Of a stretch of 59,459 nucleotides of DNA, positions 408 through 19,839 are shown one piece after another. The DNA is taken from positions 1 to 59,459 of the forward strand of contig JAZNUO010000108.1 of assembly GCA_045592305.1 (NCBI GenBank), in the 5' to 3' direction. A program made the translations under genes and the position numbers. The notes beneath the pieces are model-generated. The model made no database searches and had not been told where the DNA came from. It saw nothing but the letters and a program-made list of their open reading frames with translations. The number at the start of each line of letters is the position of its first letter. Within the stretch, counting starts at the first letter, position 1. This DNA comes from Eubacteriales bacterium. Lineage in GTDB: Bacteria > Bacillota > Clostridia > Oscillospirales > CAG-272.

Positions 408-437
408 AATACCATGACGATTGAGGGAGGTATTCCT

Positions 438-1328
438 ATGAACTATATTTCGGTAAGCGCCGCGGCGAAGAAGTGGGGTCTGTCCGAACGCAGTGTCCGC
501 AATTACTGCGCGGAGGGGCGTGTGTCCGGCGCGATCCTGGTGGGCAAGACCTGGATGATCCCCGAGAATACCGAAAAGCCCATCCGCAAGACCCGCAGTG
601 ACGCCGCTCCCAAGACCCTATTGGACATCCTGCGCCGAGAGAAGAACACCGCTCTGTCGGGTGGCATCTACCACAAGGTGCAGATCGAACTGACCTACAA
701 CTCCAACCATATCGAGGGGAGCCGTCTGACCCACGACCAGACGCGGTATATTTTTGAGACCAACACCCTCGGCGTGACCCATGAAAGCATGAACGTGGAC
801 GATATTGTGGAGACCTCCAAACACTTCCGCTGTATCGATCTGGTTATTGAGAACGCCACGGGTATGCTGACCGAGGGCTTCATCAAGGAGCTGCACCGTA
901 TCCTCAAGAACGGCACCTCAGACAGCCGCCAGTCCTGGTTCGCGGTGGGGGATTACAAGAAGCTCCCCAACGAGGTCGGCGGTAGGGATACCACCCTCCC
1001 CGAGGACGTGGCCGCCGAAATGAAGGCCCTGCTGGCGGACTACAACGCCACGAAGAAAAAGACCCTTGAGGAGATCCTGGACTTCCACTACCGCTTTGAG
1101 CGGATCCACCCCTTCCAGGACGGCAACGGCCGTGTAGGGCGACTGATCCTGTTCAAGGAGTGTCTGTGCAACAACATCGTTCCCTTCATCATCGATGAGG
1201 AGCTGAAGATGTTCTACTACCGTGGGCTCGCCGAGTGGCCGCGGGAGCGAGGGTATCTGAGGGATACTTGTCTCGCGGCGCAGGATACGTTCAAGGGGTA
1301 TCTGGATTATTTCAAGATTGATTATTGA
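438..1328 (+). CDS. fic: Fic-family (AMPylase/filamentation induced by cAMP) protein with N-terminal HTH domain
   Basis: Fic core motif HPFQDGNGRVGRL (HxFx[D/E]GNGRxxR). The N-terminus NYISVSAAAKKWGLSERSVRNYCAEGRVSG looks like a MerR/excisionase-type HTH. SNHIEG fits the [S/T]xxxE[G/N] auto-inhibitory helix motif. I prefer the ATG at 438 with SD GAGGGAGG 7 nt upstream over the ORF-track start at 414. Confidence 0.9.
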   Translation: MNYISVSAAAKKWGLSERSVRNYCAEGRVSGAILVGKTWMIPENTEKPIRKTRSDAAPKTLLDILRREKNTALSGGIYHKVQIELTYNSNHIEGSRLTHDQTRYIFETNTLGVTHESMNVDDIVETSKHFRCIDLVIENATGMLTEGFIKELHRILKNGTSDSRQSWFAVGDYKKLPNEVGGRDTTLPEDVAAEMKALLADYNATKKKTLEEILDFHYRFERIHPFQDGNGRVGRLILFKECLCNNIVPFIIDEELKMFYYRGLAEWPRERGYLRDTCLAAQDTFKGYLDYFKIDY

Positions 1329-1628: not shown

Positions 1629-2027
1629 TCATAGCAACGAATAGATTATTGCATACAAGACAACCCATCCGATAAACAAGCCCAGACCGATCTTGCACTT
1701 GTTCTTATGCTCGGGAGATTGATATGTACACAATCCAACAATGGACAACACTAAGCCCAGCCATCCGCCTAACGCTCCAAAAATAATTGCCAGCACGCCC
1801 AGTGTGGCAGACTCCTGCTTTGGAGCCTGATAGGTGTGTTGCTGATAAATATTTGTTTGTTGATAGGTCGGCTGAGGTTGCGCACCGACCGAACTGACGG
1901 GCTTGGTCGGTTGAATCTCAACCTTCTCAATCGGCTTCTTTTCTACGTACCCCTCATTGTTTTGGCCACAATTATTACAGTATCTTTCGTCTTCTCTGAC
2001 TTCGTTTCCACAACAAGAACAACGCAT
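1629..2027 (-). CDS. Zinc-ribbon protein with Q/P/T-rich linker and two C-terminal TM helices
   Basis: N-terminus MRCSCCGNEVREDERYCNNCGQ (CxxC...CxxC). The C-terminus has two hydrophobic helices (GVLAIIFGALGGWLGLVLSIVGL and IGLGLFIGWVVLYAIIYSLL). SD GGGGGTGAG lies 5 nt upstream. The gene starts 15 nt after the vWA gene stop. Confidence 0.75.
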   Translation of the reverse strand: MRCSCCGNEVREDERYCNNCGQNNEGYVEKKPIEKVEIQPTKPVSSVGAQPQPTYQQTNIYQQHTYQAPKQESATLGVLAIIFGALGGWLGLVLSIVGLCTYQSPEHKNKCKIGLGLFIGWVVLYAIIYSLL

Positions 2028-2042
2028 ACTCTCACCCCCTGA

Positions 2043-2726
2043 TCAAACTTCGTCGTTCAACCAATCAAACACGGTGTTGTCGGATTGGCTCATACTGACG
2101 CTCAACATTTCAAACAGTTTCACAAAGACATCCATATTGGTAATGCACTTAGCCTTAACTTTAGGAGAAAACATATCCAGAATGTCCAGCCTTGCGCTTT
2201 CCCCGATACCGATTGGAAGAACCTTCAATCCCTCCGTGTTTACCATATCAGAACACCTCTGAGCCGCATCATAAACAATGTTATCGGCTTCGGTGGGTTG
2301 TCCGTCTGACATGATCATCATAATGGGCTTGTAATGCTCAATACCCGCGTTTCTGTAATACTCTCGCCGCTTTTGCAGAAGGTCAAGCGCCAGTTCGACT
2401 GATGCCCCAAGCGGAGTTCTTCCGTATGCAGTTAAGGGCACAAAGTTGATTTTATCGACACTCGTGTAGCCGTTGATCACTTCCGGCTTTTCACCGCCGC
2501 ATCCAATGAGGCATACATCGCTCATCAATCTTGCATTAGAGTCATTTCGGATGGTTCTGAAAAGTTCCTGAATATTGTTATTGAGTTCATCGATTTTCAC
2601 GACCATGCCTCTGCTGCTCCGGACCTTCTCTGCCATGGAACCGCTCTTGTCCAAAATCAGACACACAGGCAGCTTAATGCCTCCGTTCATGGTAGGCTTG
2701 CTAAAGAAATTAAAACTACTGTCCAT
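2043..2726 (-). CDS. von Willebrand factor A (vWA) domain protein, TerY-like
   Basis: MIDAS motif in LPVCLILDKSGSMAE (DxSxS). The size (227 aa) and alternating hydrophobic-strand/helix pattern are typical of TerY-type vWA proteins. The start overlaps the kinase gene stop by 11 nt. Confidence 0.85.
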   Translation of the reverse strand: MDSSFNFFSKPTMNGGIKLPVCLILDKSGSMAEKVRSSRGMVVKIDELNNNIQELFRTIRNDSNARLMSDVCLIGCGGEKPEVINGYTSVDKINFVPLTAYGRTPLGASVELALDLLQKRREYYRNAGIEHYKPIMMIMSDGQPTEADNIVYDAAQRCSDMVNTEGLKVLPIGIGESARLDILDMFSPKVKAKCITNMDVFVKLFEMLSVSMSQSDNTVFDWLNDEV

Positions 2727-4095
2727 TGTTATTCATCTCCTTTTTGATTTTCTCCAAAAACAGTTGTAATTCCTTAACCCATTCAGACAGGTCTGTGATC
2801 TTTCCCTGCTTGAAATAGTAATAGAAATACTTTCTCATGGATGGCGTCAGAAACATCGCCCACAAAGCCATATCCTCGGACTTGACCTCAATGCCATCAA
2901 CATCAAGGGGATAAAAGAATTGGGATTTGTCCGTGTTTTCGATATCCATATGATCCGGGCTGTATGTATGGTTCTTCATGATCATAATTTCAAACGCCAT
3001 TTTGTTGATGGGATAATACTCGTCTTCCATTGTCCTCAACTGCTTTTTCAGTTCATCCTTTTTGAACACACGCTTAGTATATTCCGGATGGCAAACCGGG
3101 CAGGCATAGTCGTTGATCTGGTAACACCCACAATCAATGAAATAAACCTCACTTGGTGATTTGACCAACACGTTGTCCGGCTTCAAATCGCCGATCAGGA
3201 TTCCCTTGTCATGCAAGTATTTGATGTGCTTCAGAAAATTGTAGCAGATTTCAAATCTTTCAGGGTGCGTATACTCCGAAAAACTTTGTAAGCGGAGGCT
3301 CAGCAGAGTTTCCGCCCCCTTGACTTCGTCCATAACGTAGCCAACAAACACATCATTTACATAGACCAGATCCCGAGGCCAACAAATGAAGGGATTGTAC
3401 AGATTCATCTCTATCATTTCAGATAGCTTTTTGAAATTAACGTAGGTTATGTTTTCCTTTTTGAAAATCTTAACCATCATGTTGTTATATGTTCTGTAAA
3501 CGCTTCCCTCTCCACCGTTTATTTGCGAAGCTATGTTGAGTTTCAGATATCCATACTTGGGAGAATAAACATAGTCAATCCCTGTTGTATCAATTCGGTT
3601 CACATATTCATCTTCTTGCAAATAAAACGCATCTTTTGGAAGTGTAGTCTGTGCCTGATCCTGCCATTCTTCAAGCCCTTGTTCGGTTACAAAATAAAAC
3701 CTCAGTTTTGAGCTGGCGGCTGTTAATTCCTTAAAAACGCCATACACACTCTCACGCTGCACGATGATGCTACATTCCGCATCTTTCTTCTGCTTGGAAA
3801 ACATAGGTTCAAGCAGCGTATAGTCCAAATAACTGTTGGTTTCAATTCTCTGAAGCATTCCCTTCTGCTCGAGAATATCTATCAAACCTTCCAGCAAATA
3901 CGCTTCTTTGAATTTGAGATCCGCTTTATATTTTTCTATTCTTTCCTCAATGCCACTATCCACAAAGACAGTAAGATTCTGCCCATTGGCTTCAATAGAT
4001 TCAACGTAATCTTTCAGGAGCATATAGAAATTAGGGAAAATAAAAACGGTATCTTCAATAAAGACGTAATTGTCTTTCGATTTCTTTATCTCCAT
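2716..4095 (-). CDS. Eukaryote-like Ser/Thr protein kinase with an N-terminal extension of about 200 aa
   Basis: Gly-loop and Lys: INGGEGSVYRTYNNMMVKIF. Catalytic loop: HDKGILIGDLKPDNVLV. A DFG-equivalent FIDCGC follows. The gene overlaps the PP2C gene by 10 nt. Confidence 0.85.
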   Translation of the reverse strand: MEIKKSKDNYVFIEDTVFIFPNFYMLLKDYVESIEANGQNLTVFVDSGIEERIEKYKADLKFKEAYLLEGLIDILEQKGMLQRIETNSYLDYTLLEPMFSKQKKDAECSIIVQRESVYGVFKELTAASSKLRFYFVTEQGLEEWQDQAQTTLPKDAFYLQEDEYVNRIDTTGIDYVYSPKYGYLKLNIASQINGGEGSVYRTYNNMMVKIFKKENITYVNFKKLSEMIEMNLYNPFICWPRDLVYVNDVFVGYVMDEVKGAETLLSLRLQSFSEYTHPERFEICYNFLKHIKYLHDKGILIGDLKPDNVLVKSPSEVYFIDCGCYQINDYACPVCHPEYTKRVFKKDELKKQLRTMEDEYYPINKMAFEIMIMKNHTYSPDHMDIENTDKSQFFYPLDVDGIEVKSEDMALWAMFLTPSMRKYFYYYFKQGKITDLSEWVKELQLFLEKIKKEMNNNGQ

Positions 4096-5045
4096 TTCAT
4101 ATACTCCTTAACTTCGTCCACCCCCGTAAACTCTGCCTTTGCGGATATGGAAGGATCAACAAAATAGCAATACTGCGACTTGCGGATAATTTGTTTTGAG
4201 GATTTAATGCCCGCCAACAAATACTCTGCGTAATCTTCCGTAATCTTTCCTGTATCAGCATCTTCCAACGTCAAAATGTTCAAGCTCAAATCGTCAGTAG
4301 AATAGTTTGAAATGATCTCTCTTAAATATCTGGAAATGATTTTCTCATAGTCGTCCGGCTTATGATTCTGAAAATTTGAAAACAGTTTATAAACATTGTC
4401 GTCAACGGCAGTGCCATTGAACAGAACCGTCCCGGCTCCGTCCGAGGTCAGCAAAACTCCCTTTAAATTGTCAATGCTTCCAGCCTGTAAATGAAGATGT
4501 TCTGCTGCATTCGTATCGGGAATGAAGAATGTGATGTTACTTCTTTCTCCATTTTCGGGTTCCGAAATAACCTTGACCCGATACGCGTTGTTTTCGTTGT
4601 AGACGCCCGCAATGACACCATCTCCAATATGTCCCATAATGTAATGGTTGTCTTTGATGGCGAAAAACAGGAGCGTAGATGACAGCTCTTCCACGGAGAT
4701 ATTCAACTCCAAAGCCTTTGCTTTCAAAGTCGTCATAAGAGCCGTAACGATCACCTTGCTAAGACCGGCCATGTTCTTTTTATGCTTGGCTTGATTTGTC
4801 TTTTCCTCTTCAAAGCACAGAAGGTAATCAATAAACTTCTCTGAAAGCAAGTCACAGATTTTTTTGCATACGATCTCCGCTCCAATCTCCGATTTAGATT
4901 TGGATCCCGCACCGTCAGCAAGGGCAACGGCCTTCACTCCGTTGGCTTCGGCATAAAACGTTCTGTCCTGGCAGACCATACCGCGCGATATGTGCATTTT
5001 CCCGATCTCGTATGTTTGGACATTCTTCCACTTTTCAATGATCAT
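4086..5045 (-). CDS. PP2C-family Ser/Thr phosphatase
   Basis: PP2C-like acidic motifs ALADGAGS, GHIGDGVIAG and LLTSDGAG. The start at 5045 gives an ATGA overlap with the stop of the upstream vWA gene. Alternative in-frame starts are at 5057 and 5138. Confidence 0.8.
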   Translation of the reverse strand: MIIEKWKNVQTYEIGKMHISRGMVCQDRTFYAEANGVKAVALADGAGSKSKSEIGAEIVCKKICDLLSEKFIDYLLCFEEEKTNQAKHKKNMAGLSKVIVTALMTTLKAKALELNISVEELSSTLLFFAIKDNHYIMGHIGDGVIAGVYNENNAYRVKVISEPENGERSNITFFIPDTNAAEHLHLQAGSIDNLKGVLLTSDGAGTVLFNGTAVDDNVYKLFSNFQNHKPDDYEKIISRYLREIISNYSTDDLSLNILTLEDADTGKITEDYAEYLLAGIKSSKQIIRKSQYCYFVDPSISAKAEFTGVDEVKEYMKWR

Positions 5046-6109
5046 TTTACCGTCCATCCATCGTAAGAATTTGTGGGAATTCCAAAGGACTGATCTATAG
5101 GGGTTTCTACTCTTTTTTGCGCTATGATATAGATCCAATTGAATAAATCGTCATACATTGCATCTTTGATCGTTATAAACTTCTTGAGTTTGCGAAGTAG
5201 AACCAAGCTCCCATCGAATTCGCGATCCGACAGAGCAAACGGAAAATATGACAGCTTTCCTTCCCCTGCCATTTTCTTGATGATTTCAACCGAATTGCTC
5301 ATATCCCCAAAGTTTTCACCATTTGACAGCACAATCAGCCATGGCTTATAGTATGGGATCCCTTGCTTTTGAAGCTCACCGATTCTTTCTTCAAGCTTTT
5401 CCAGACTTTTGGAAATGGACAAATCCAGAAACGGAATCCCCCCGGCGAAGAATTTCTCCTTCACGATCGCAGTTTCATCAAACGGCTTTGCGACGGTACA
5501 GTTGAATCCGCTAAACAGCGTTGTCTCAAATTCAATTCGGTCAGTCAGGCCTTCGCTTTGAAGGCGCTCGTTGAAGGCAAACACCGCTTTCTTTAGACGA
5601 TCCATTTTTTCGCCCTTCATAGAAGCGCTATTATCTATGGATATACTGATTAAAAGTTTTGCTTTTTTTCCTTCTTCCGACATTTCTTCTACCTCTATTT
5701 CAACAGGAAAGCCCTTTTCGATTCTCCAAAAATTGACCTTCCCGTTGAATCCATTCTTTTTTATGACTTTTAGTTCCTTTTTGGCGTATTCCTTGTCCTC
5801 GGTAAAGATGCACATATTGCCGGCCGGCAATTCAGTAACAGATGATACTTCAATCACCAGGCCCATTTTCCGGTAATGCTCCAGAACAAACAAGCCGGCA
5901 AACGCGGCGTTTTCGCTCTCCGAAAACGAACAATACCTTTGCAGACACTCTCTCGCGGTCTTTTTTACGTACACCTTTTTGTGGCTCGCAATCAATGCGC
6001 CATACAGATCAAGCAGGAAAAAGTCCTTTTGCCCGGCCATAAGCGATGACACATCAATCAGTAATGAGGAGGCTGTAACAATGCTTTCCAGTGATGTTTT
6101 CATACGCAT
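5042..6109 (-). CDS. Second vWA-domain protein with an N-terminal extension of about 160 aa
   Basis: MIDAS motif in LLISISIDNSASMKGE. The C-terminal half reads vWA-like (YKPWLIVLSNGENFGD). The start is 6109, or 6103, which has better SD spacing from AAGGA. It lies 5 nt after the stop of the 593-aa gene. Confidence 0.8.
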   Translation of the reverse strand: MRMKTSLESIVTASSLLIDVSSLMAGQKDFFLLDLYGALIASHKKVYVKKTARECLQRYCSFSESENAAFAGLFVLEHYRKMGLVIEVSSVTELPAGNMCIFTEDKEYAKKELKVIKKNGFNGKVNFWRIEKGFPVEIEVEEMSEEGKKAKLLISISIDNSASMKGEKMDRLKKAVFAFNERLQSEGLTDRIEFETTLFSGFNCTVAKPFDETAIVKEKFFAGGIPFLDLSISKSLEKLEERIGELQKQGIPYYKPWLIVLSNGENFGDMSNSVEIIKKMAGEGKLSYFPFALSDREFDGSLVLLRKLKKFITIKDAMYDDLFNWIYIIAQKRVETPIDQSFGIPTNSYDGWTVK

Positions 6110-6114
6110 ATTCC

Positions 6115-7896
6115 TTACAAAGTTCTGAAAGCGTCCAGCATCAATCTGCTACTTTCCACATGCATGATCACGTTTCGCAAGACTGGGAGATTGTTGGCAG
6201 CATACAGATTTTCAATAATCTCTTTGCCGTAAAGAACAAGATTGCTTTTACTGCTTACGCTCATGGGATAGTATTCGAAGCTATCACACAACCTACCGCA
6301 TGATATCATGCTTTCACAAACAGTTTTGGCTTTAGCCTTATCCTTGATACTGACCAGCATCAGGCCATCAAGTAAGGCTGCCAAGCAAAGTAACCCTCTC
6401 GCGTTCAGGCACTTTTTGTATTCGACAAACAGCCACTTCACTTTTTCCGCAACCACCTGTGTCACACAGTCCTTCCCGTATACGAAATAGTAAAGCAAGG
6501 ACTTAAAGCATTTATCCAAAACAGGCTGCAGATCTGCCAAAGCCCGATTGTACATGGCATCCAAATGGACTTGATTCTCCAAATAGCTCTCTTGCTCAAT
6601 GATTCGATTCACGCTGTCGAGTGAGGTTTTATCTTTTGCATAGTAATTACGCAACGTAAGAGCGATACTCTCATAACGGGTAGATACATCGTTATATCCG
6701 CTGTCAAGCTGAAGCAAATGGTAGTATCCTTCAAACAACTCAGAGGTTTTATTGGAAACTGCCGCCAGATCAAGGGCTGTCCTGATGCCTTCACAATCCA
6801 CCTTGGTACAGAACACGAGATACTTGTTCGCCAATTTGTAATTGTCCTTCTTGATTATGATCGTAATGAACTCGATCATTTCTTTTTCCGAAACATACCT
6901 GTTTACTGAACGATCAAACAGGAAAATATACCCTTTATCCTCACAACGAAGTAGGACTTGATAGTTGACCAGGTTGTTATGATACAGATAGTTTACAACC
7001 TCATCCCGATTTGCTTCATGGGTGGCGATATACTCCAGAATCACTTGTGTGTACTTGGCGTCCTTGAACAAACCATGATTCCGTAGCATGTCCGCTACTC
7101 GAATGAGTGCTTGATTATCCTTGAACCGTGCTTTTTCAAAGACATGAACGATGTACGCGGAAAGTAGTCTTATCTTCTCCTCATGAATCTCGGTACAGAT
7201 CTTTTCCAATTCAATGCCGGTGATTGGATTGAAAAGATTGTATGTATGCGCACTAATGCTCCCGCTTTTCAAATAATCAATGAGTGACGTGGTAAAAAAG
7301 CTCGTCATTGTATTATCAAAGCTGTTTGCAATGCTTTCTTGCGCCACGATAATGTCCGATAACGGCTTATCAATTTCCTCCAGCCCATCGATTCCCTTGT
7401 AGTTCAAAACCAGCGTATCACAAGTGTCATGGATTTTCGTTACATCGCTCCTGATTTCATCCCGTCTTGCTTTTAAGACACGGATGAAATCAAGGAGCTT
7501 TTGTTTGTTGATGAAGCTGTTACTGATGCTCTCGTGTATGGAATCAAACTCCGATAGGTCTCGGTTATACCCCTTACTAAAGTAGTACAAAATGAGGCTT
7601 GTTCCGACCCATACAGTCATGGCGCCGAAAATAAACAGATAGATCTTCAAAACCTCGTTCCGGAGAATCAGAAACGAAACCACGATGGTCAGGGCCAAAT
7701 ACACGATGCCAAGAATCACAAGTGCTTTATGAGGCTCAAAGGTGAAATAACTGCGATAAACCATGTAATTCTCATAATTTATCGCCTTCCTTTTGTGCAG
7801 GATCACCTCGCGCGAGGAATACAGCACAACCATGACAATACCCGCGACAACAAAAAGTGCTGCCAAGATAATAAAGTATTGTTCTACGATTTCCAT
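6115..7896 (-). CDS. Membrane protein of unknown function (about 4 N-terminal TM helices plus a helical domain of about 470 aa)
   Basis: Hydrophobic segments IILAALFVVAGIVMVVL, ALVILGIVYLALTIVVSFLIL and IYLFIFGAMTVWVGTSLILYYF. I recognise no catalytic motif. The ATG is 1 nt after the TAA of the giant gene, with SD GAAGGAAGG inside that gene's end. Confidence 0.7.
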   Translation of the reverse strand: MEIVEQYFIILAALFVVAGIVMVVLYSSREVILHKRKAINYENYMVYRSYFTFEPHKALVILGIVYLALTIVVSFLILRNEVLKIYLFIFGAMTVWVGTSLILYYFSKGYNRDLSEFDSIHESISNSFINKQKLLDFIRVLKARRDEIRSDVTKIHDTCDTLVLNYKGIDGLEEIDKPLSDIIVAQESIANSFDNTMTSFFTTSLIDYLKSGSISAHTYNLFNPITGIELEKICTEIHEEKIRLLSAYIVHVFEKARFKDNQALIRVADMLRNHGLFKDAKYTQVILEYIATHEANRDEVVNYLYHNNLVNYQVLLRCEDKGYIFLFDRSVNRYVSEKEMIEFITIIIKKDNYKLANKYLVFCTKVDCEGIRTALDLAAVSNKTSELFEGYYHLLQLDSGYNDVSTRYESIALTLRNYYAKDKTSLDSVNRIIEQESYLENQVHLDAMYNRALADLQPVLDKCFKSLLYYFVYGKDCVTQVVAEKVKWLFVEYKKCLNARGLLCLAALLDGLMLVSIKDKAKAKTVCESMISCGRLCDSFEYYPMSVSSKSNLVLYGKEIIENLYAANNLPVLRNVIMHVESSRLMLDAFRTL

Positions 7897-7897
7897 A

Positions 7898-10800
7898 TTA
7901 CAGCACCTTCCTTCGCGAAATCATTATGACGACAAACGCGACAAGCATCAAGCCAACCACGACAGACATCATAATCACATACGAATAGTTGGGATTATTG
8001 TAGGTAAAGGATATCTCCTCAACGTAACCGTTTGCGCCTTCAATTCTCAGCGTGTGAGTTCCGTGCTTGTTTACGACCGTATCCTCACTGATGATCACTC
8101 CGTCAAGGTACATGGTAGCATCCAATTTCTCAATGGAAATTTTCTCATCCCTCTCTTCACCGTTTGCGACAGAAAGTGTGGGCGCAATGAAAATTTCAAT
8201 GGTTCGTTCATATCCGTTGGCGCCCTGTACCGTGATAACATTATTACCAATCGAGGTGATTTCCGTCATATTCTCGATCTTGGTCCCGTTCACAAAGAGC
8301 GTTGCATTCGGTATATCAATCAACGCGCTGTCCTGATACTTGTAATCAGCGTTTCCGCTATAGGTATGCTCAATCGTGAACTCAGCGCGCGAAACGTATC
8401 CGTTTGCTCCTCTGTATTCAACAGTATGATTGCCAACTTGATTGAACAATTCGCCATAGGTATATTTCATACCATCGACATACAGTTCGATTTCCGCATT
8501 GGCAAAATTGAAATTCTTCAGACTCTCGGCATATGCGGTCACGTCCACCGTGATGGTAAAAGAACAAATCTGCTCATAGTTGGGGCCGCTTACCTTAAGC
8601 GTATGGTGTCCGATTTCGGTGATCAAGGTTCCCGACACATACGGTTCGTCATCCAGATACCACTGGCCTATTGATGTGTTCGCCATTACGCTTCCGTTGT
8701 ATTCCTGACCGTCAGCAACGCCGGACAGCACAGCAACGACAGAAAATGAATATTCGTTCGAGTATCCGTTTGTTCCGAATACTGTCAGCGTGTAACTTCC
8801 TGGGGTCGTCAACTCATAGAGACCTGAAATTTCCAAATCATTCAAAACGGCAGAACAATCCGGGATATCGATGGTCATGGCTCTGTCATAAACATTCCCA
8901 TCGGTAATGTTCAGACTTTCCGTAACAGTGAAATCTATGGATGTCTGATATCCGTTCGCCCCCTCAATCACCATAGTATGATGGCCAATTTTTTGTGTGG
9001 ACGAATGGACATTGACCGAAGCTCCATCCAACGTTGCCGTACAATCTGCAGGAATGTCCCATGTTACAGAAGAGCTATACGAGCCACCTTCTTCTATACC
9101 CAAAACTTTTGGGGTCACGGTGAAGGTCATCGAATAGGTGTAATCCCCACTTCCCTTCATAGTCAGCGTGTGATTACCCACGGATTTAATTACATCTCCA
9201 GTCTTGTACGCCACACCATCGATATAGAATGTACCGTTGAGAGTTGTGACGGAAACCTGTTCGCCATAGATTCCATTGTGTTCCACACCATTCAGTTTTG
9301 GAATAACGGTTATCTCATAGGAATTGGTGTATCCATTCGAGCCAATTACTTGCAGCTCATGAATGCCGATTGCGTAGTATGCGGTATTGCTGGAATAGTT
9401 TTTACCGTCTATGAGAATGGAGAAGGTATCGGGATCAAATTCAAGCTTGAACGCTTCAGTGTACTGCACCGCAGAAATGGTCGAGCTGTCTTCCCGCAAG
9501 GTAAACTTAATCAGCTTTTCATACCCGTTTACGCCAATTATTCGCACCGTATGATGGCCAACCTTGGTATACAGAGCACCGTCAGTATACTCTTCGCCAT
9601 CAATAGTCAGCACCGCAGTAGGAGTCGCCTTAATAGAAACACCTCCGAAGACAACGGCATTATCCTCAATACCGTTAATGAGCGGATCAACTGTGATGGT
9701 GAACGCCTTCGTGTATCCACCGTGTCCATTAATAACAAGCTTATTGTTTCCCACGGTTTTGATCTCGGTGCCTTGAACGTACGGGCTACCGTTCAGCGTT
9801 ATAGTCATCTCTGAACCAAGAATTGTTGGTTGGAAGGATTGCGAATAACTATCTCGCAAGTTTTCAATGACCGGCTCAAGTGTAAACGAGATTGCGTGGA
9901 CATATCCGTTGGTTCCGTGAATAGTCAAGGTGTGGTTGCCAACGGCTGTAATAGGCACATTCAAGTCAATCTCCACACCGTTCAGTTTAACTGTTCCACC
10001 GTTGACAATAGGCGAAACACTGCCTTGATAGATCTGATCCTGGCTCAATCCGTTGACAACAGGTTCAACGGTGAATACATATTCCTTCGTGTACCCCCCA
10101 ACACCGATAATTCTCAATCTATGAACACCCACTTGACTCTCCAAAATGGGAGTGCCGGATGTAAATGTTTTTCCATCCAAAGTGGCTGTAGCATGGTTGA
10201 ACACAGGAATCACGTTGGTCACATATTGGCCGCCGTTTTCTACACCTTGAATATTTGCGTCAATTGTGAAAGTTATTTCGTGCGTATAGCCACCAACACC
10301 CTCAATTTTCAAGACATGATGGCCTACATTTGCCACCGAGGTTCCGGACACAAATGCCTCACCATTCAGATAGATGGTTTCCGCATTAATGACAGGAGCA
10401 ATAGACGAGTTGTAAATACCTTCATTGGTAACGTTCTTCAGATCCGGTCCAATGGTAAAGTGGTACTCATTGGTATACCCATTTGTGCCCTTGACTACGA
10501 GGGTATAGTTGCCAACAAGATAAACTCTCGTATGGTCGTCCACTTCCTGTCCGTTCAGAGCTACGGAAACCACATGATTGCAATCCAGTTGAAGGCTCGT
10601 ATACTCTTTTCCGTCCACAAGACCGGGAATTTTTTCGGTCAGGATAAAGGTATACTCCTTCTCGTACCCATTCTCACCCACGATGCGCAGATAATGCAAC
10701 CCGACCGTGTAATAATCGGTCCCACTTTCGTAAGCAATGTCATCAATAAACAAATCCGCATGAGGGATCGAAATATTGATCATATACTCGGTAGTAAATC

Positions 10801-13800
10801 CATCATCGAAGTTCTGATAGCCTGTGGTATCTTTTATGACAGGATCTTCGGCAACGGTAAAGCCAAAGGATTCCTCATAGCCATTCGTTCCCTCAATTTT
10901 GATGGTGTGATGCCCAAGAGAAACAATGCGTTCTCCATTGTACCGTTCACCGTTCAGATAAAGCGTGGCGTTTTCAATCAAACGAACCGCAATTTCTTTG
11001 CTGAACACTTTGTCTCTGTACTCTTCAACACCAGTAGGCGTAACGGTAAAGTCATAGCGCAAAATGTACCCGTTAACACCAACCATTTCGAGGGTGTGAT
11101 ATCCAACTGCACAGATTGGTGTTCCGCTCACATAGACCGCTCCGTCCAAAAGTGCTTCACAACGATCGAACTTCGGAGTCACAACTCCGACGTAGATTCC
11201 ATCATCTACAATGTCTGAAACATCGGGAATCACCGTGAATTTGAAGTCTTTCTCGTAACCGCCAACGCCCATGACCGTTAGTGTATGATAGCCTACCGTG
11301 TCAATGGTGGACTGGAAAACATAGGGCTGACCATCCAGCAGGACATAGGTGTTTTCGTCCTGATACGTGTTGGTATTATCAAGATAGATGTCAGGAACAA
11401 ACTTGGTTCCGCTTCCGTTGGATTTCAAATTCAACTTGAATTTGGCGCAATCGTCACCGCGGGAGGTAGACCCATCTTTTCGGTACGATATCGTCATCAC
11501 CTCGCCGGCGTTCAACGAAATTTCGCGTTCTGCCCACCCGGGGCTTCCCGACACATTAACGATTTCATTTCCGCCTTTCACGACAATGAGTTTATCGTAA
11601 TTTGCCTCAGACGAGACAAAATAATTCAAAGTGAGTTCAATATCAGTTTTTGCTGTTATAGTAAATACTGATGTAGAATTATTCGACTTATTCGTTGAAG
11701 TATAGACATCACCGCTCAAGGTAAATGGATAGGAACTGTCGTTCTTGATCGAAATATTTGAAGCATCAAGGAGCTTCTCAACAACGGGATCAATCACGAA
11801 TTCAATGGTTTCCACATAACCGTTTGCGCCATGAATTTCAAACTTATGATTCCCAACAACATAGCAATACGTATCGTTTGAAAACTCCCGACCGTCAAGG
11901 AAAATGCCTTCGTAATAGTCTTCAGACAAAACGCTGCTGCTGGTGCTGCTACTTCTCAGTCTCAGATAAACCCCATTTTTTGAAGTATAACTTGAACCAT
12001 TAGAAACACCGCTCCAATTTGCCTTGATGGTAAAATTCTTTTCTACCGTGTAGCCGTTCGCTCCTTCAATCGTCAGGGTGTGATAACCAATCGAATAGAC
12101 GGTTTTCGAACCGGTCAGAACCTCACCGTCAAGCTTTACCACGGTGCTGCTGAAATTGGAAAGATAATCCACGCTGACAGACTTCGAGTAGTTTACTTGC
12201 TCGCCATCAGTTATGCTCGTATTTTCCTTTCTCGTAAAAGATACGGTTTTGCTATAACCGTTTACGCCAATGATCTCAATCTCATGATTGCCAATATCAT
12301 AGATATATGATCCGGACGAGTAGGGATTGCCATTCAACTTCAAGGTTGCGTAATCACAGTAAAAACGAATATAGCTCGTGGTTTCCGTACCGTCATCCGC
12401 TCCTGAGAAGGAAGGGTTCACCGTGAATTCATAGGAATAAACATACCCATTTGTTCCGATAATCTCAACCTTATGGTATCCAACGTCATATACCCACGCG
12501 CCGGATGACCAGTTCGCTCCATTCAGCTTGATGGTTGCGTAGCTGCAGGAAATTCGGGTCTGTCCTGGTAAATACTCCTTCCCCGCTTCCGCGCCGGTGA
12601 TAGAAGGCAGAATGGTAAACTGATATTCGGAAACATATCCATTCACGCCCATAACCGTCAGGGTATGATAGCCAACGTCGTATATGGTGCTCCCGCTGGA
12701 GTAATCTTTTCCGTCCAGCATAAGCGAAGCGTTGGAAACAGATGGCTTTATACTTCCTGTGTACTCTTTACCGTTTTCAAGATTGCTGATCCTTTCTGTA
12801 ACGGTGAAGGTCAGTTCGTTTTCATATCCGTTCACACCCACGATTTTCATTGTGTGGTTGCCAACCTGATAAACAGTTGTTCCGCTTGAAAAGGCGTTGC
12901 CGTCGAGATAGAGGGTCCCGTTGCTTGTCTTAGGTACCACCGAATACTCATAGCGTCCGTTTGCCTCGATGTTCTCCCATATCTCTTTGACCGTAAAGGT
13001 GATCTCATAGTTGAACCCATTGAGATTGGCAACCGTAAGCGTGTGGTAGCCAACCTCTGTGATTGGGGATCCACTCACATACGCCTTGCCGTCCAAAAGA
13101 AGATTATTCCATTCAATTACAGGGGTTACAGAGCCTTCATATACCTGCCCGTTTTCAACTCCGCTTATGGAGGGAAAAATGTAGAATGTTACATCTGTTC
13201 TCTCCCCACCGTAAATGAACGAGAGCGTATTCTTTCCTATCGTGGTAATAGGGGCTCCCACCGTATATGCTTCACCATTGATCTCCATGTCGCAAACATT
13301 GTGAGTGATCGACATGGATTGCATATAGACGCCGTTTGCCTTGATTTCAAACTCGTCCGAAAGAACGACGAAATTGAGGGTTTGCTTATATCCCCCAATA
13401 CCGGTAACAACAAGCCTGTACACACCTTCTTCCGTAATTGCCGTTCCGGAAACATACTCTTTACCGTTCAAGGTCAACTCCCCTCCTCTTATGAGAGGCG
13501 TGACAGAACCGTAATAGACGGTCGCGTTGTGGATCCCTTGTATTTCGGGAACAATGTCAAAAGAGATCACTTCCTCATGACCGTTTTCTCCTTTGATCTT
13601 CAGCGTGTAGGTTCCCACATCGGAAAGAATCGTCCCGGAAGTAAATGCTTGACCGTTCAGCTCGATTATCCCACCAATAGCATTTACTGCCGTTCCGGAG
13701 GCGTACTTCCCGCCATTCTCCACATTGACTGTCGCGCAAATTGAGAAGCGGACCGTTTTTGTATAACCATTTTCTCCATCGACAGTCAAAACATAATCCC

Positions 13801-16738: not shown

Positions 16739-16758
16739 GTCTGACCCTCGTTTCTTAA

Positions 16759-17481
16759 TCAAAGCTTCTTTCGAATCTGAGAAATGATCTCTTCTACCGA
16801 CAGCCCGCTATTATTCGCCAACAAAATGGAGATTGAGCCGCTGATTTCATCAATGGCTTTTTGCTCCTGATCAGTTGTGTATTTGGTAGGATTGGGTTTT
16901 TTATCAACTGCGGTTTCAAGTTTCAGATAATCCTCTTCTGAGTATGAAAAATCTTTTGCCTGTACCTTTTGATCAAAAATGAAAAGACTGATGGCCATCA
17001 TTTTTTCCGCCTCGTTCAGGTCGGTCAAGTGGACCTTATCTTTCCACAGCAGAAAATACTTGAAGATGCAGTGTAGAAGGCCGCTATCTTTCATCAACAG
17101 CTTCGCCAGTGTGTCATACTCGTCTTTTGTAAAGCGTTCCAAAATCAAATCCTCTCCGAGCACGTCCAATACCGCTTGTGCTCGATTGGCTCCATTCGTT
17201 TCGCCGGAAGACATCTGCGGCGCACTTTGAGAGTAGGATGACATGTCAGTTTTTTTGCCGTAGTTCTCAATCACATAGGCGTATCGTCTTTCGAAGTCCT
17301 CCTTCGTCATCTGCGCATCACCGAATAAGAAATCAAAAATCTTTTGAAACAAATTGTTTGAAAGTCTTACTCCGCTATCATAGTTTCGAATATAGGTATC
17401 AAGAGTAGGACGTGAAATATTCAGGCTGTCCGCAAATTCGGTCAATAAAATATTGTTTCTTTTCAATACCGCTTTGATCAT
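16759..17481 (-). CDS. HTH-domain transcriptional regulator (first gene of the island operon)
   Basis: N-terminus MIKAVLKRNNILLTEFADSLNISRPTLDTYIRNYDSG looks like an HTH. SD GAGGA lies 5 nt upstream of the ATG at 17481. The longer ORF-track start at 17667 would swallow the consensus promoter at 17566-17594. The stop overlaps the start region of the giant gene. Confidence 0.6.
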   Translation of the reverse strand: MIKAVLKRNNILLTEFADSLNISRPTLDTYIRNYDSGVRLSNNLFQKIFDFLFGDAQMTKEDFERRYAYVIENYGKKTDMSSYSQSAPQMSSGETNGANRAQAVLDVLGEDLILERFTKDEYDTLAKLLMKDSGLLHCIFKYFLLWKDKVHLTDLNEAEKMMAISLFIFDQKVQAKDFSYSEEDYLKLETAVDKKPNPTKYTTDQEQKAIDEISGSISILLANNSGLSVEEIISQIRKKL

Positions 17482-17565: not shown

Positions 17566-17594
17566 ATTATATCGCAATATATACGGTTTGTCAA
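17566..17594 (-). promoter_or_regulatory. Perfect-consensus sigma-A promoter driving the island operon
   Basis: The minus strand reads TTGACA (17594-17589), a 17-nt spacer, then TATAAT (17571-17566). Confidence 0.65.
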
Positions 17595-17778: not shown

Positions 17779-17803
17779 AAAAAAAGGACTCTCGTTAGAG
17801 TCC
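17779..17803 (-). terminator. Rho-independent terminator (minus strand)
   Basis: The minus strand reads GGACTCT-aacg-AGAGTCC followed by TTTTTTT (7-bp stem at 17786-17803, T-run at 17779-17785). Confidence 0.6.
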
Positions 17804-17978: not shown

Positions 17979-18012
17979 AAAAGAAAAAGTCCACAACATC
18001 GCTGTTGTGGAC
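17979..18012 (-). terminator. Rho-independent terminator immediately downstream of the tRNA 3' fragment
   Basis: Perfect 9-bp stem GTCCACAAC / GTTGTGGAC (17989-17997 and 18004-18012) with a 6-nt loop. On the minus strand it is followed by TTTTTCTTTT. Confidence 0.7.
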
Positions 18013-18017
18013 TTGAA

Positions 18018-18044
18018 TGGCGGAGATGGAGAGATTTGAACTCT
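18018..18044 (-). other. Orphan tRNA 3' fragment (T-loop plus 3' acceptor strand plus CCA): candidate attL core of the prophage
   Basis: The minus strand reads AGAG-TTCAAAT-CTCTC-CATCTCC-G-CCA. That is a T-loop consensus, a 7-nt acceptor 3' strand, discriminator G and an encoded CCA, with a GGAGA.../G73 flavour like Firmicute tRNA-Ser. The sequence 5' of it (AATAAAGGAAATGAAC) is not tRNA-like, so this is a fragment, not a gene. Confidence 0.6.
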
Positions 18045-18083: not shown

Positions 18084-19115
18084 CTACTTATTGACTCCGT
18101 GATTGTTCAGTATTTGGGCGGCCTCCGCTACGGCTTTCTCGCGGAAGTCGGTATAAATATCCATAGTGGTAGACAACTGCTTGTGTCCAAGTACCTCTTG
18201 GATGGTCTTCGCGGGGACCCCTGCCTCGAAGGCAACGGTGGCGAAACTGTGGCGTAATTGATGGAGGGTGCAGGTGGCTCCCGTGGACTCACGGAATTTT
18301 TTGTACATGGTGTCGTATCGTTTGGCGGTAAAGTACTTTCCCGGCGCGCCGTCTGCAAAAATAATATCTGTGTCCTTGGCGGCTCCGCGTATCTTAACCA
18401 GATGCTCCTTCAGCGGGGCGAGCAAGGGTACAATGCGGACTCCTGCCGCGGTCTTTGTGGTCTTGACAAAGGGCGTGTTTCCGTCATGGGCGAGTGATTT
18501 GGATACGTGTATCAGATTTCGGGCGAGGTCAATGTCCCCCCATGTGAGGGCAAGGATCTCGCCTTTTCGCATGCCGCTCATGAGGGCGAAGAATGGGAAC
18601 AGCCACTCGTCGGCATGATCCTTGACGATCTGCTCGTCGGCCTCGGAAGCTGCGTCCCGCTTGGTCTTGCCGGTTCCCTTGGGCGGTGATACGGAGGAGC
18701 AGGGATTGTAAACGATGTCATTTTGAAGGACGGCATGATCGCAAATCAGATTGATGACCATCCGCTGGTTGGAGAGGGTCTTCTGTGCGTATGCCGCCGC
18801 GAGGCTCTTTAAAAATAGGTTAATGTCTCGGGGTGTAATGTCCTTGATGCTGAACTCTCCGAAATGGACGACTGCACGATCCATTGCAGGCCTGTACGTG
18901 CTCACGGACTGGAGAGCAAGCCGTGGCTCGGTTTCTGACCACCATTCCTCCGCTATTTCGGCAAACGTCCTTCCCTTCTCGGCTTGACCTGTATATGCCA
19001 GAATCTTGCGGTTGATCTCCCGCTCGCTCTTGCCGTAGAAGCTCTTGGTTTTTCCTGTGCGGGGGTCGGTTATCTTCTTAACGTAGCGCCCGTCAGCGCG
19101 TTTTTTTAGAGGCAT
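18084..19115 (-). CDS. int: Tyrosine-type site-specific integrase
   Basis: Catalytic-region motifs ALMSGMRKGEILALTW (Arg), HQLRHSFATV (H-x-x-R), VLGHKQLSTTMDIYTD (His and Tyr nucleophile). The N-terminal SAM-like/core-binding region is typical of phage integrases. Confidence 0.95.
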   Translation of the reverse strand: MPLKKRADGRYVKKITDPRTGKTKSFYGKSEREINRKILAYTGQAEKGRTFAEIAEEWWSETEPRLALQSVSTYRPAMDRAVVHFGEFSIKDITPRDINLFLKSLAAAYAQKTLSNQRMVINLICDHAVLQNDIVYNPCSSVSPPKGTGKTKRDAASEADEQIVKDHADEWLFPFFALMSGMRKGEILALTWGDIDLARNLIHVSKSLAHDGNTPFVKTTKTAAGVRIVPLLAPLKEHLVKIRGAAKDTDIIFADGAPGKYFTAKRYDTMYKKFRESTGATCTLHQLRHSFATVAFEAGVPAKTIQEVLGHKQLSTTMDIYTDFREKAVAEAAQILNNHGVNK

Positions 19116-19812: not shown

Positions 19813-19839
19813 TTGATGACCCTCCCTTTCTTCACCATC

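What the first reader, a model, noticed from the sequence alone, without database searches (positions are those of the whole stretch)
1629..7896. TerY-P-type vWA/PP2C/kinase triad expanded to six translationally coupled genes with two membrane proteins
These points are seen in the sequence. The genes are, in transcription order, vWA(DNSASM) 5042-6109, PP2C (ALADGAGS, LLTSDGAG) 4086-5045, Ser/Thr kinase (GGEGSVY..VKIF, HDKGILIGDLKPDNVLV) 2716-4095, and vWA(DKSGSM) 2043-2726. They overlap by 4, 10 and 11 nt. Directly upstream, after a 5-nt gap, is a 593-aa protein with about 4 TM helices and a large unassignable helical domain. Directly downstream, after a 15-nt gap and with its own SD, is a Zn-ribbon protein with two TM helices. 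From established knowledge, vWA plus PP2C plus STK is the TerY-P triad defined by Anantharaman, Iyer and Aravind (2012), and Gao et al. (2020) reported it as an anti-phage system. Its mechanism, sensor and effector are unknown. By inference, the duplicated vWA, the extra domains on the kinase and on vWA-2, and the two dedicated membrane partners suggest a membrane-anchored phospho-switch, with the flanking genes as candidate sensor and effector. I know of no description of this architecture, or of its linkage to a giant surface protein.
Basis: partly seen in the sequence, partly recalled or inferred. Interest (0 to 1): 0.72.

Follow-up and report, generated by a model that had tools for sequence, protein, structure and literature searches.

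The report
Surface-anchored kinase–phosphatase–vWA signalling operon
A gut Clostridia bacterium has an eight-gene operon that ties a giant cell-surface protein, through a new kind of membrane protein, to a kinase/phosphatase/vWA switch related to a known anti-phage module; the arrangement is conserved and appears undescribed, and it may let bacteria sense threats at the cell surface.

Summary
All six genes are present at the stated coordinates, and the domain calls hold: two vWA, a PP2C and an active-looking Ser/Thr kinase. The unit is larger than reported. A consensus promoter at 17594-17566 drives eight co-directional genes. These are an HTH-like protein, a 2954-aa Ig-repeat surface protein with a C-terminal TM anchor, the 593-aa protein (3 TM plus a novel helical domain), vWA1, PP2C, kinase, vWA2 and a Zn-ribbon/2TM protein. 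In all 17 independent loci with enough upstream DNA, the order anchor-p593-vWA1-PP2C-kinase-vWA2 is invariant (kinase identity down to 31%). The surface protein ranges from 391 to 3277 aa. The Zn-ribbon protein is present in most lineages but not all. The extra domains are PIN-like. One is the N-terminus of every kinase in the family. A second copy sits on vWA1 in the window's clade. The closest outgroup kinases lie in classical TerY-P-type triads, but PADLOC would not call TerY-P here. The cassette lies outside the adjacent prophage. The best reading is a membrane-spanning surveillance switch, probably a conflict or defence system. Function is untested. I class it as a new variant of a known kind.

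The parts
17566..17594 (-). Consensus sigma-70-type promoter (TTGACA-17-TATAAT, 12/12) heading the operon
   Evidence: It lies about 85 nt upstream of the HTH-like gene's ATG at 17481. Two terminator-like hairpins lie further upstream, at 17786-17803 and 17987-18014.
16759..17481 (-). 240-aa protein with a conserved N-terminal HTH-like segment (LSEFADSLNISRPTLDTYIRNY); probable operon regulator
   Evidence: It is found upstream of the surface-protein gene in WIN, L001, L003, L005, L006, L007, L016 and L039. The HTH is inferred from the sequence pattern only. Profile searches are not significant.
7898..16762 (-). Giant type-I membrane surface protein of 2954 aa. It has a signal peptide, a Bact_surface_Ig-like domain, a Tyr-rich region, about 36 tandem 63-aa Ig-like repeats (residues 509-2921, nt 8000-15238) interrupted at 1657-1799, and a conserved F-[TS]-[FY]-x-N-P-N juxtamembrane motif followed by a TM helix (nt 7919-7975) and an RRKVL tail.
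   Evidence: The likely true start is the ATG at 16738, which has a GAGGG SD. Homologues of 391-3277 aa sit immediately upstream of p593 in 16 other loci.
6115..7896 (-). p593, a novel membrane protein. It has three N-terminal TM helices (nt 7588-7878), a juxtamembrane coiled-coil-like segment (residues ~113-215) and an all-alpha cytoplasmic domain with a conserved C-terminal RIExxRLxLD motif.
   Evidence: AF2 model pLDDT 74.5. No Foldseek, PDB or Pfam relatives. The family has 77 clusters at 50% identity among 1.84e9 representatives, almost all 585-600 aa long. It is always directly upstream of vWA1.
5042..6109 (-). vWA1. It has an N-terminal PIN-like domain (nt 5675-6109; motifs LIDVSSL and FTEDKE) and a vWA domain (nt 5087-5668) with DNSAS but an incomplete MIDAS (LSNGE).
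   Evidence: The vWA domain matches vWA2 in hhalign at 98% probability, E 1e-13. The N-extension is homologous to the kinase N-domain: hhalign E 0.004, and HMM scores of 25.7 and 20.3 bits against the L001 and L039 copies. The extension is present only in WIN, L001, L005-7, L039, L042 and L043.
4086..5045 (-). PP2C-family Ser/Thr phosphatase (319 aa)
   Evidence: PF13672 PP2C_2, E 6e-37. Conserved position in all loci.
2716..4095 (-). Ser/Thr kinase (459 aa). It has an N-terminal PIN-like domain (nt 3625-4095) and a kinase domain with a distinctive helical C-lobe (nt 2719-3570).
   Evidence: Pkinase 34.1 bits, and the catalytic residues are invariant. The AF2 model of the N-domain has pLDDT 91, and its top Foldseek hits are PIN domains (1o4w, Utp24, SMG6; TM 0.45-0.63). 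It aligns collinearly with the PIN_4 domain of the F. vincentii PIN_4-kinase-ZnR protein.
2043..2726 (-). vWA2, a TerY-like single-domain vWA protein (227 aa) with a complete, invariant MIDAS
   Evidence: Pfam VWA 24.3 bits and PADLOC TerY E 0.003. MIDAS residues are invariant. tblastn against the IncHI2 'TerY-C metal binding domain-containing protein' gives 23% identity over 90% of the query, E 5e-4.
1629..2027 (-). Zn-ribbon, Q/P-rich linker and two Gly-rich TM helices (132 aa); an accessory component and a candidate membrane effector or anchor
   Evidence: Zn_Ribbon_1 E 1.5e-4. TM helices at 78-96 and 113-131. Homologues lie directly after vWA2 in WIN, L001, L003-7, L013, L014, L016, L031, L035, L044 and L050. 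It is absent in L008, L010, L027, L039 and L040.

Best explanation
The locus is one eight-gene operon that encodes a membrane-spanning signalling assembly.

Shown:
- A signal-peptide-bearing Ig-repeat surface protein, held by a single C-terminal TM helix with a 5-8 residue cytoplasmic tail, is always encoded immediately before p593.
- p593 has three TM helices and a large cytoplasmic all-alpha domain.
- p593 is always followed by four proteins without signal peptides or TM segments, so presumably cytoplasmic: vWA1, PP2C, PIN-like kinase and vWA2.
- The kinase has all catalytic residues, and vWA2 has an intact MIDAS.
- The surface and membrane parts diverge much faster than the enzymes.

Inferred:
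- The surface protein and p593 form a TM-TM complex that reports events at the cell surface, such as phage adsorption, contact or envelope damage.
- p593's cytoplasmic domain docks the vWA proteins. Its invariant acidic C-terminal motif is a candidate MIDAS ligand.
- The docked vWA proteins position the kinase and the opposing PP2C as an on/off phospho-switch derived from the TerY-P triad.
- In the window's clade the output would be the PIN-like (RNase-type) domain on vWA1 and/or the Zn-ribbon/2TM protein. In other lineages the same core is followed by SPFH-AAA-TIR or BrxL modules.
- The most likely biological role is conflict surveillance, meaning anti-phage or anti-invader abortive or growth-arrest signalling.
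For: Synteny:
- anchor-p593-vWA1-PP2C-STK-vWA2 is invariant in 17/17 loci with enough upstream DNA.
- p593 is also present in 8 further truncated loci.
- This holds over kinase identities of 31-98% and host GC of 26-57%.

Operon structure: tight coupling, an SD before each gene and a single consensus promoter.

Topology:
- All anchors have a signal peptide and share the NPN-TM-RR[KR]V[LI] end.
- p593 has 3 TM helices plus helices.

Divergence gradient, as % identity to the window for giant/p593/vWA1/PP2C/STK/vWA2:
- L005: 64/76/77/85/89/93
- L001: 34/41/40/63/60/66
- L010: -/20/28/40/38/42

Relation to TerY-P: and PMC11090510 for the definition and for the Gao 2020 defence result.

PIN-like domains. 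PIN_4-kinase fusions exist in classical triads.

Conflict-type neighbours:
- Fic = PADLOC PDC-S04, E 1e-109, next to the cassette in the window.
- BrxL, TIR-Sel1 and AAA in L014 and L050.
- TIR-TPR, SPFH and AAA in L039.
- SLFN_AlbA_2 and type I R-M in L016.
- A second triad in L008.
- SNF2 and IMS in L001.

Against: - No experiment exists, and no component other than the marginal TerY hit matches a PADLOC defence model.
- A giant surface protein is not a known part of any defence system.
- In one clade (L025, L027, L040) the cassette sits between ruvX and rpsB-tsf-pyrH, with no effector-like gene after vWA2.
- Cassette GC tracks the flanks, which suggests long residence rather than frequent transfer.
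- The kinase-borne PIN-like domain has TQ[KR]E in place of the PIN_4 TQDND motif, so it may be inactive. No Pfam PIN model matches either copy.
- Physical interaction between the anchor, p593 and the vWA proteins is inferred from gene order only.
Confidence: 0.4

Rival explanations
1. This is a regulated adhesin or colonisation operon. The Ig-repeat protein is a host-, fibre- or cell-binding adhesin. p593 with the vWA/PP2C/kinase set is a contact-sensing or inside-out regulatory module controlling adhesion, biofilm or the operon's own expression through the HTH-like protein. It has no role in phage defence.
For: The surface protein looks like gut-bacterial Ig-repeat adhesins (Bact_surface_Ig-like and BiPBP_C-like repeats). 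An HTH-like gene heads the operon. The L025/L027/L040 clade has the core in a housekeeping neighbourhood without effector-like genes. Cassette GC matches the flanks.
Against: The triad's closest relatives are TerY-P-type modules linked to defence. PIN-like domains, and downstream TIR, BrxL and AAA modules in three divergent lineages, are not expected for an adhesin regulator. The family is very patchy, with 77 clusters in 1.84e9 representatives.
Confidence: 0.25
2. This is a dedicated biogenesis or quality-control system for the giant protein. p593 and the cytoplasmic proteins would assist or gate export, membrane insertion or turnover of the very long surface protein. The phospho-switch would couple synthesis to envelope state.
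For: The giant-protein and p593 genes are coupled with a 1-nt gap, and the anchor end is conserved. TerY-like vWA pairs are reported flanking secretion-type ATPases in CoCoNuT extensions (PMC11090510).
Against: The same core serves surface proteins of only 391-767 aa, which need no special export help. The core contains no ATPase, translocase or protease. p593 has no similarity to any known export factor.
Confidence: 0.1
3. This is a prophage-borne moron or superinfection-exclusion cassette belonging to the adjacent prophage.
For: The integrase and cI-like repressor lie about 400 bp from the operon's promoter. The cassette's GC is lower (0.43) than the prophage's (0.53).
Against: A tRNA 3' fragment with its terminator, the att-type junction, lies between the integrase and the cassette at 17987-18043. 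No relative of the kinase is found in 2.9 M IMG/VR viral contigs, and only one weak partial hit is found in 50,697 phage records. Other loci have no phage genes nearby.
Confidence: 0.03
4. This is a plain TerY-P triad that merely sits next to unrelated membrane and surface genes.
For: Domain content matches vWA + PP2C + STK.
Against: Gene order, coupling and co-occurrence with p593 and the anchor protein are invariant across 17-25 independent loci down to 31% kinase identity. The kinase architecture and gene order differ from classical triads.
Confidence: 0.02

Closest known systems
TerY-P (TerY-phosphorylation) triad: TerY-like vWA + PP2C + Ser/Thr kinase (Anantharaman, Iyer & Aravind 2012; anti-phage activity reported by Gao et al. 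2020, as summarised in PMC11090510)
   Same: It has the same three enzyme or adaptor types. vWA2 is TerY-like with an intact MIDAS. The nearest outgroup kinases (P0120, P0122, F. vincentii) sit in such triads.
   Different: Gene order here is vWA-PP2C-STK-vWA, against STK-vWA-PP2C in the classical triads. There are two vWA paralogues. The kinase has no C-terminal zinc ribbon or OB fold and instead has an N-terminal PIN-like domain. Partnership with a 3-TM protein (p593) and a TM-anchored surface protein is obligatory. PADLOC profiles do not recognise the PP2C or the kinase.
PIN_4-kinase-(zf_Tbcl) triads, e.g. Fusobacterium vincentii NZ_CP084075.1 415.8-419.9 kb and Paenarthrobacter plasmid NZ_CP136443.1 (WP_316963961.1 'PIN domain-containing protein' + VWA + PP2C)
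   Same: An N-terminal PIN-type domain is fused to a kinase whose kinase domain is 32% identical to the window's. An HTH gene lies upstream, with vWA and PP2C adjacent.
   Different: These are three-gene STK-vWA-PP2C units with a Pfam-recognisable PIN_4 and a C-terminal treble-clef domain. They have no p593, no surface protein and no second vWA.
CoCoNuT type III-A extensions in which paired TerY-like vWA genes flank ATPases, next to a glycine-zipper membrane protein (PMC11090510)
   Same: The theme of two TerY-like vWA genes bracketing other components is shared, as is association with a small Gly-rich membrane protein and, in L008, L014 and L039, with a SpoVK-like AAA ATPase.
   Different: There is no McrBC/CnuH/HEPN core here. 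The bracketed genes are PP2C and kinase. The membrane sensor pair is absent from CoCoNuTs.
Type VI secretion threonine-phosphorylation pathway (PpkA kinase with a vWA domain, PppA PP2C, TagQRST envelope sensors); recalled from my own knowledge, not tested here
   Same: It works alike in principle. An envelope-located sensor set switches a Hanks-type kinase/PP2C pair, and a vWA domain takes part.
   Different: No homology was shown. It is Gram-negative and periplasmic, its output is T6SS assembly through an FHA protein, and it has no giant surface protein.
Giant TM-anchored repeat adhesins of Firmicutes (e.g. S. aureus Ebh); recalled from my own knowledge
   Same: It is a very long repeat ectodomain held by a C-terminal TM helix with a short basic tail instead of an LPXTG sortase signal.
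   Different: Such adhesins are not known to be operonically coupled to a kinase/phosphatase/vWA module or to a p593-like protein.

Membership tests
TerY-P triad | TerY-like vWA protein with a metal-binding MIDAS | tested here: met
   vWA2 scores Pfam VWA 24.3 bits (GA 23.8) and PADLOC TerY E 0.003 (partial). MIDAS residues D26/S28/S30/T104/D141 are invariant. tblastn to IncHI2 TerY-C proteins gives E 5e-4 at 90% coverage. The similarity is distant.
TerY-P triad | Adjacent PP2C-family phosphatase | tested here: met
   PP2C_2, E 6e-37. However, there is no PADLOC hit at E<=0.1.
TerY-P triad | Adjacent catalytically competent Ser/Thr kinase | tested here: met
   Pkinase 34.1 bits. GGEG, K209, D303, N308 and D321 are invariant.
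TerY-P triad | Kinase fused at its C-terminus to a zinc ribbon (CoCoNuT-linked form) or OB fold (Gao 2020 form), per PMC11090510 | tested here: not met
   The kinase ends at residue 459 with a helical C-lobe and has no zf_Tbcl or OB hit. The outgroup kinases P0120, P0122 and F. vincentii do have these domains.
TerY-P triad | Self-contained three-gene module recognised by defence-system profiles | tested here: not met
   The invariant core has six genes including p593 and a surface protein. In PADLOC, only TerY is marginal, the best kinase hits are MkoA, mad6 and PD-T4-6, and the PP2C has none.
TerY-P triad | Confers phage resistance | not testable with these tools
   This needs heterologous expression and phage challenge.
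von Willebrand A domain (for the 355-aa protein) | Profile-level similarity to vWA and a DxSxS motif | tested here: met
   hhalign against the vWA2 family gives 98% probability, E 1e-13, over 191 columns. DNSAS is conserved in most members. The remaining MIDAS positions are degenerate (LSNGE; DNGVS and DNSYV in distant members). There is no direct Pfam hit.
PIN-like nuclease domain (kinase N-domain and vWA1 N-extension) | PIN alpha/beta/alpha fold | tested here: met
   The AF2 model has pLDDT 91.2. The top Foldseek hits in PDB are PIN domains (1o4w TMt 0.63, probability 1.0; Utp24, SMG6, SMG5, Nmd4), but E is only about 1e-3 and CARF/Rossmann-like folds follow.
PIN-like nuclease domain (kinase N-domain and vWA1 N-extension) | Match to a curated PIN sequence model | tested here: not met
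   No Pfam PIN family matches at E<=5 for 22 kinase N-domains or 5 vWA1 N-extensions. There is only a weak collinear HMM alignment (8.9 bits) to the F. vincentii PIN_4 region.
PIN-like nuclease domain (kinase N-domain and vWA1 N-extension) | Conserved acidic catalytic residues | tested here: inconclusive
   vWA1-N keeps IDxSS and T-E-D-K-[DE]. The kinase-N has FIE[ED]S and TQ[KR]E, where PIN_4 has IDT and TQDND. Activity cannot be judged from sequence.
Prophage cargo (moron) | Located inside the prophage att boundaries | tested here: not met
   A tRNA 3' fragment at 18018-18043 and a terminator at 17987-18014 separate the integrase from the cassette. There are no relatives in IMG/VR.

The most novel reading that the evidence does not exclude
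The cassette is an outside-in immune receptor. A rapidly diversifying Ig-repeat filament on the cell surface detects phage or competitor contact before or at DNA entry. It transmits this through the novel p593 transducer to a TerY-P-derived kinase/phosphatase/vWA switch. The switch then fires interchangeable effectors: PIN on vWA1, the Zn-ribbon/2TM protein, or SPFH-AAA-TIR in other lineages. This would be the first bacterial defence system with a dedicated extracellular sensor, and it would give the TerY-P class a sensor and an effector.
Probability: 0.2. Interest if true: 0.9.

Novelty: new variant of a known kind. Interest (0 to 1): 0.7.

Why it matters
The sensor, substrate and effector of TerY-P modules are still undefined. 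Here a TerY-P-derived switch is hard-wired, across dozens of divergent Clostridia lineages, to an identifiable membrane pair: a surface protein of 391-3277 aa, and a previously unknown 3-TM protein family. It is also wired to candidate outputs, namely PIN-like domains, a Zn-ribbon/2TM protein and TIR modules. That gives concrete partners to test and short natural variants of about 6.6 kb (L010-type) that can be cloned. If the role is defence, it would show bacteria sensing invaders from outside the membrane. If the role is adhesion control, it would be a new integrin-like, phospho-regulated surface system in gut anaerobes. Either way, p593 and the PIN-like kinase define new protein families absent from Pfam, NCBIfam and PADLOC.

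Tried and rejected
- Exact-sequence look-ups of the window's p593 and HTH-like proteins found nothing. As a result, an empty prophage site could not be examined.
- p593 has no relatives in any library: Pfam, NCBIfam and PADLOC, Foldseek against PDB (best E 0.5), a profile against PDB sequences (only coiled-coil noise), and Pfam on 40 family members.
- A profile of vWA1 against PDB sequences gave only sub-threshold vWA hits. It was settled by hhalign instead.
- The kinase N-domain profile found nothing significant in PDB sequences or in Pfam. The profile against the Paenarthrobacter PIN_4 domain also failed.
- I considered the four-Cys cluster DCGC...CPVC in the kinase activation segment as a zinc site. 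Only C332 is conserved, so I rejected it.
- ARAGORN finds no intact tRNA, and the only Rfam hit is sub-threshold (ctRNA). The att assignment rests on the tRNA 3'-end sequence and its terminator.
- The giant gene has no DNA-level tandem repeats, so recent repeat expansion is not supported.
- A scan of viral contigs for the kinase found nothing.
- The genome-contig scan used narrow patterns and found only 3 close relatives. It therefore says nothing about distant members.
- The Anantharaman 2012 paper is not held. The TerY-P definitions are taken from PMC11090510 and PMC4978471.
- L036 carries a solo 298-aa kinase-domain relative among housekeeping genes. It is an orphan and not a counter-example to the synteny.

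Full report
**1. Observation**

The junctions are also as stated, with overlaps of 4, 10 and 11 nt and gaps of 5 and 15 nt. Each start has a Shine-Dalgarno-like sequence.

Profile searches give the following:
- PP2C is confirmed (PP2C_2, E 6e-37).
- The kinase is confirmed (Pkinase, 34.1 bits).
- vWA2 is confirmed (VWA, 24.3 bits, just over the cut-off).
- The Zn ribbon is weakly supported (E 1.5e-4).
- The 355-aa 'vWA1' and the 593-aa protein have no hit in Pfam, NCBIfam or PADLOC.

vWA1 is nevertheless a genuine vWA paralogue. Its residues 148-341 match the vWA2 family profile at 98% probability, E 1e-13.

In an alignment of 26 family kinases, the G-loop GGEG, K209, D303/K305/N308 and D321xG are invariant. 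The enzyme therefore looks active.

The vWA2 MIDAS (D26, S28, S30, T104, D141) is invariant. vWA1 keeps DNSAS but has LSNGE at the last MIDAS position, and the motif decays in distant members.

p593 has three N-terminal TM helices. A fourth hydrophobic helix lies inside its soluble domain.

**2. The unit is bigger than reported**

The p593 family is tiny when searched by words: 19 clusters in 5.8e9 proteins. Every contig that carries it shows the same neighbours. These are a roughly 240-aa protein, a giant Bact_surface_Ig-like protein, p593, vWA1, PP2C, kinase, vWA2 and a small Zn-ribbon protein.

The kinase family is broader. It has about 100 clusters, 33-98% identical, all about 450 aa with the same N-terminal domain.

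I fetched contexts of distant kinases and 37 metagenome loci. I then mapped all components with jackhmmer. The results are:
- In 17 of 17 independent loci with enough upstream DNA, the order is [TM-anchored surface protein]-p593-vWA1-PP2C-kinase-vWA2.
- Eight further truncated loci still show p593 directly before vWA1.
- p593 homologues are full-length (585-613 aa) even at 20% identity.
- An exhaustive profile search finds 77 clusters at 50% identity in 1.84e9 representatives. Almost all are 585-600 aa, and none is fused to another domain.

The surface protein ranges over 391, 498, 640, 767, 996, 1168, 1678, 1946, 2657, 2930, 2954, 3021 and 3277 aa. It always has a signal peptide and the same end: a last Ig-like repeat, F-[TS]-[FY]-x-N-P-[NH], one TM helix and an RR[KR]V[LI] tail. 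The L008 copy is a degenerate 177-aa remnant.

In the window, the surface protein carries about 36 diverged 63-aa repeats. It has no DNA-level repeats.

The accessory genes are less constant. The Zn-ribbon/2TM gene follows vWA2 in 14 of the 19 lineages that could be checked and is absent from the other five. The HTH-like gene precedes the surface-protein gene in eight lineages.

A perfect TTGACA-17-TATAAT promoter sits at 17594-17566, upstream of the HTH-like gene. The window therefore holds one operon of about 16 kb and eight genes.

**3. The extra domains**

The kinase's first 157 residues fold confidently (pLDDT 91). Their best structural matches are PIN domains: AF0591, Utp24, SMG6, SMG5 and Nmd4, with TM scores of 0.45-0.63 and probability about 1. 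The E-values are only about 1e-3, and Rossmann/CARF-like folds follow.

No Pfam PIN model matches by sequence. However, the closest kinases outside the family are PIN_4-kinase-treble-clef fusions in classical STK-vWA-PP2C triads:
- In Fusobacterium vincentii, PIN_4 scores 27.3 bits and the kinase domain is 32% identical.
- On a Paenarthrobacter plasmid, NCBI annotates the protein as 'PIN domain-containing protein'.

The family's N-domain HMM aligns collinearly with the F. vincentii PIN_4 region. FIEES aligns with FIDTCS, and TQKES aligns with TQDND.

The 145-aa N-extension of vWA1 is homologous to the kinase N-domain (hhalign E 0.004; HMM 25.7 and 20.3 bits). It is present only in the window's clade and in L001, L039, L042 and L043. 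It keeps more PIN-like motifs (IDxSS, TEDK). I read the kinase copy as probably non-catalytic and the vWA1 copy as a possible RNase. Neither can be decided from sequence.

p593 is all-alpha (pLDDT 74.5) and has no structural or sequence relatives.

**4. Context**

Window positions 18-59 kb are a prophage. Its genes include:
- integrase and cI-like repressor
- SbcC-like protein, DnaD-like protein and a methyltransferase
- terminase, portal, major head protein and internal virion protein
- a 4836-aa SNF2-type protein
- tail fibre

Between the integrase and the cassette lies the 3' end of a tRNA gene (GAGTTCAAATCTCTCCATCTCCGCCA, 18018-18043) followed by its terminator. This is the integration junction, so the cassette is on the host side.

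No family kinase occurs in IMG/VR. GenBank phages give only one weak partial match.

On the other side is a Fic/DOC protein that matches PADLOC candidate PDC-S04 at E 1e-109.

Elsewhere the cassette neighbours differ by locus:
- L014 and L050: BrxL-like, TIR-Sel1 and AAA genes.
- L039: SPFH-double-Zn-ribbon, AAA and TIR-TPR.
- L008: SPFH, AAA and a second triad.
- L016: SLFN_AlbA_2 and type I R-M.
- L001: SNF2 helicase and a Y-family polymerase.
- L010: integrases.

In the L025/L027/L040 clade, however, the cassette lies between ruvX and rpsB-tsf-pyrH. Cassette GC follows flank GC from 26% to 57%, which argues for long residence in each lineage.

**5. Mechanism**

Shown: the gene order, the coupling, the topology signals, the catalytic and MIDAS conservation, and a divergence gradient. 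In that gradient the ectodomain, p593 and the Zn-ribbon protein evolve fastest, and vWA2 and the kinase evolve slowest.

Inferred:
- The surface protein's only cytoplasmic part is a 5-8 residue basic tail, so any signal must pass through a TM partner. p593 is the obvious candidate.
- p593's cytoplasmic domain would recruit the two vWA adaptors. Its invariant C-terminal RIExxRLxLD is a candidate MIDAS ligand.
- The recruited vWA adaptors would position the kinase/PP2C pair as a reversible switch.
- Outputs are modular: PIN-vWA1 and the Zn-ribbon/2TM protein here, and SPFH-AAA-TIR or BrxL elsewhere.

I favour a conflict or defence surveillance role (confidence 0.4) over a regulated adhesin (0.25), a biogenesis aid (0.1), prophage cargo (0.03) or chance adjacency (0.02).

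**6. Comparison with known systems**

PMC11090510 defines TerY-P as a TerY-like vWA, a PP2C and an STK fused C-terminally to a zinc ribbon. In the Gao 2020 defence systems the fusion is to an OB fold instead.

This cassette shares the three activities and is phylogenetically adjacent. It fails the kinase-fusion feature, the three-gene organisation and recognition by PADLOC profiles.

It resembles the paired-vWA extensions of type III-A CoCoNuTs in theme only. Functionally it recalls the T6SS PpkA/PppA envelope-sensing pathway and TM-anchored giant adhesins. Both of those comparisons come from my own knowledge and were not tested here.

Literature searches for TerY-P, and for vWA + PP2C + kinase combinations, found no description of this architecture.

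**7. Verdict**

It is incomplete because it misses the giant protein, the HTH-like gene, the PIN-like domains and the accessory status of the Zn-ribbon protein.

I class it as a new variant of a known kind, containing at least one new protein family (p593). Interest is 0.7. Function remains untested.

Noticed in passing
window 18050-59459: A prophage cut off by the window end. It carries an integrase (18084-19115, -), a cI-like repressor (19345-19986, -), an SbcC-like ATPase, a DnaD-like loader, a DNA methyltransferase, terminase, portal, major head protein, internal virion protein and a tail fibre. Its GC is 0.53, against 0.43 for the cassette.
   Followed up: partly
window 17987-18043 (-): The 3' end of a tRNA gene (T-arm, acceptor and CCA) is followed directly by a strong terminator hairpin and abuts the integrase. 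ARAGORN finds no whole tRNA, so this looks like the displaced tRNA fragment at the prophage attachment site. There is only one copy in the window.
   Followed up: partly
window 42056-56566 (+): A single 4836-aa ORF lies inside the prophage's structural region. It has SNF2/ResIII/Helicase_C domains (residues ~2430-2970) and a weak Eco57I-type methylase signal. This is an unusually large phage protein, possibly an injected anti-restriction or polyvalent protein.
   Followed up: no
window 414-1328 (+): An HTH_17 + Fic/DOC protein matches PADLOC candidate defence family PDC-S04 at E 1e-109. It is convergent with the cassette's last gene.
   Followed up: no
L014:7123-16392, L050:4426-13663, L039:12011-17964, L008:12304-16737: In three divergent lineages the core cassette is followed, co-directionally and tightly spaced, by an SPFH (Band_7_1) protein that sometimes carries a double zinc ribbon, two proteins of about 200 aa, a SpoVK-like AAA ATPase, and then TIR-TPR or BrxL-like plus TIR-Sel1 proteins. 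This may be an alternative effector module.
   Followed up: partly
L057:7916-12974 (F. vincentii NZ_CP084075.1) and L058:4643-8986 (Paenarthrobacter plasmid NZ_CP136443.1): These loci show an HTH protein, a PIN_4-kinase(-treble-clef) protein, a vWA protein and a PP2C. This is a PIN-bearing variant of the TerY-P triad, which I did not find named in the searched literature.
   Followed up: partly
L008:16760-21079: A second, classical kinase-PP2C-vWA triad followed by an RCC1-repeat protein lies 5 kb downstream of the cassette on the same contig.
   Followed up: no
L007:15870-16737: Two tandem Zn-ribbon/2TM paralogues with different TM modules follow vWA2. Across the family, the Zn ribbon is conserved while the 2-TM part comes in at least three unrelated-looking types.
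   Followed up: no
L036:9995-10891: A solo 298-aa kinase-domain-only relative (46% identical, no PIN-like domain) lies among housekeeping genes (serS, acyltransferase, MatE) with no cassette partners.
   Followed up: yes
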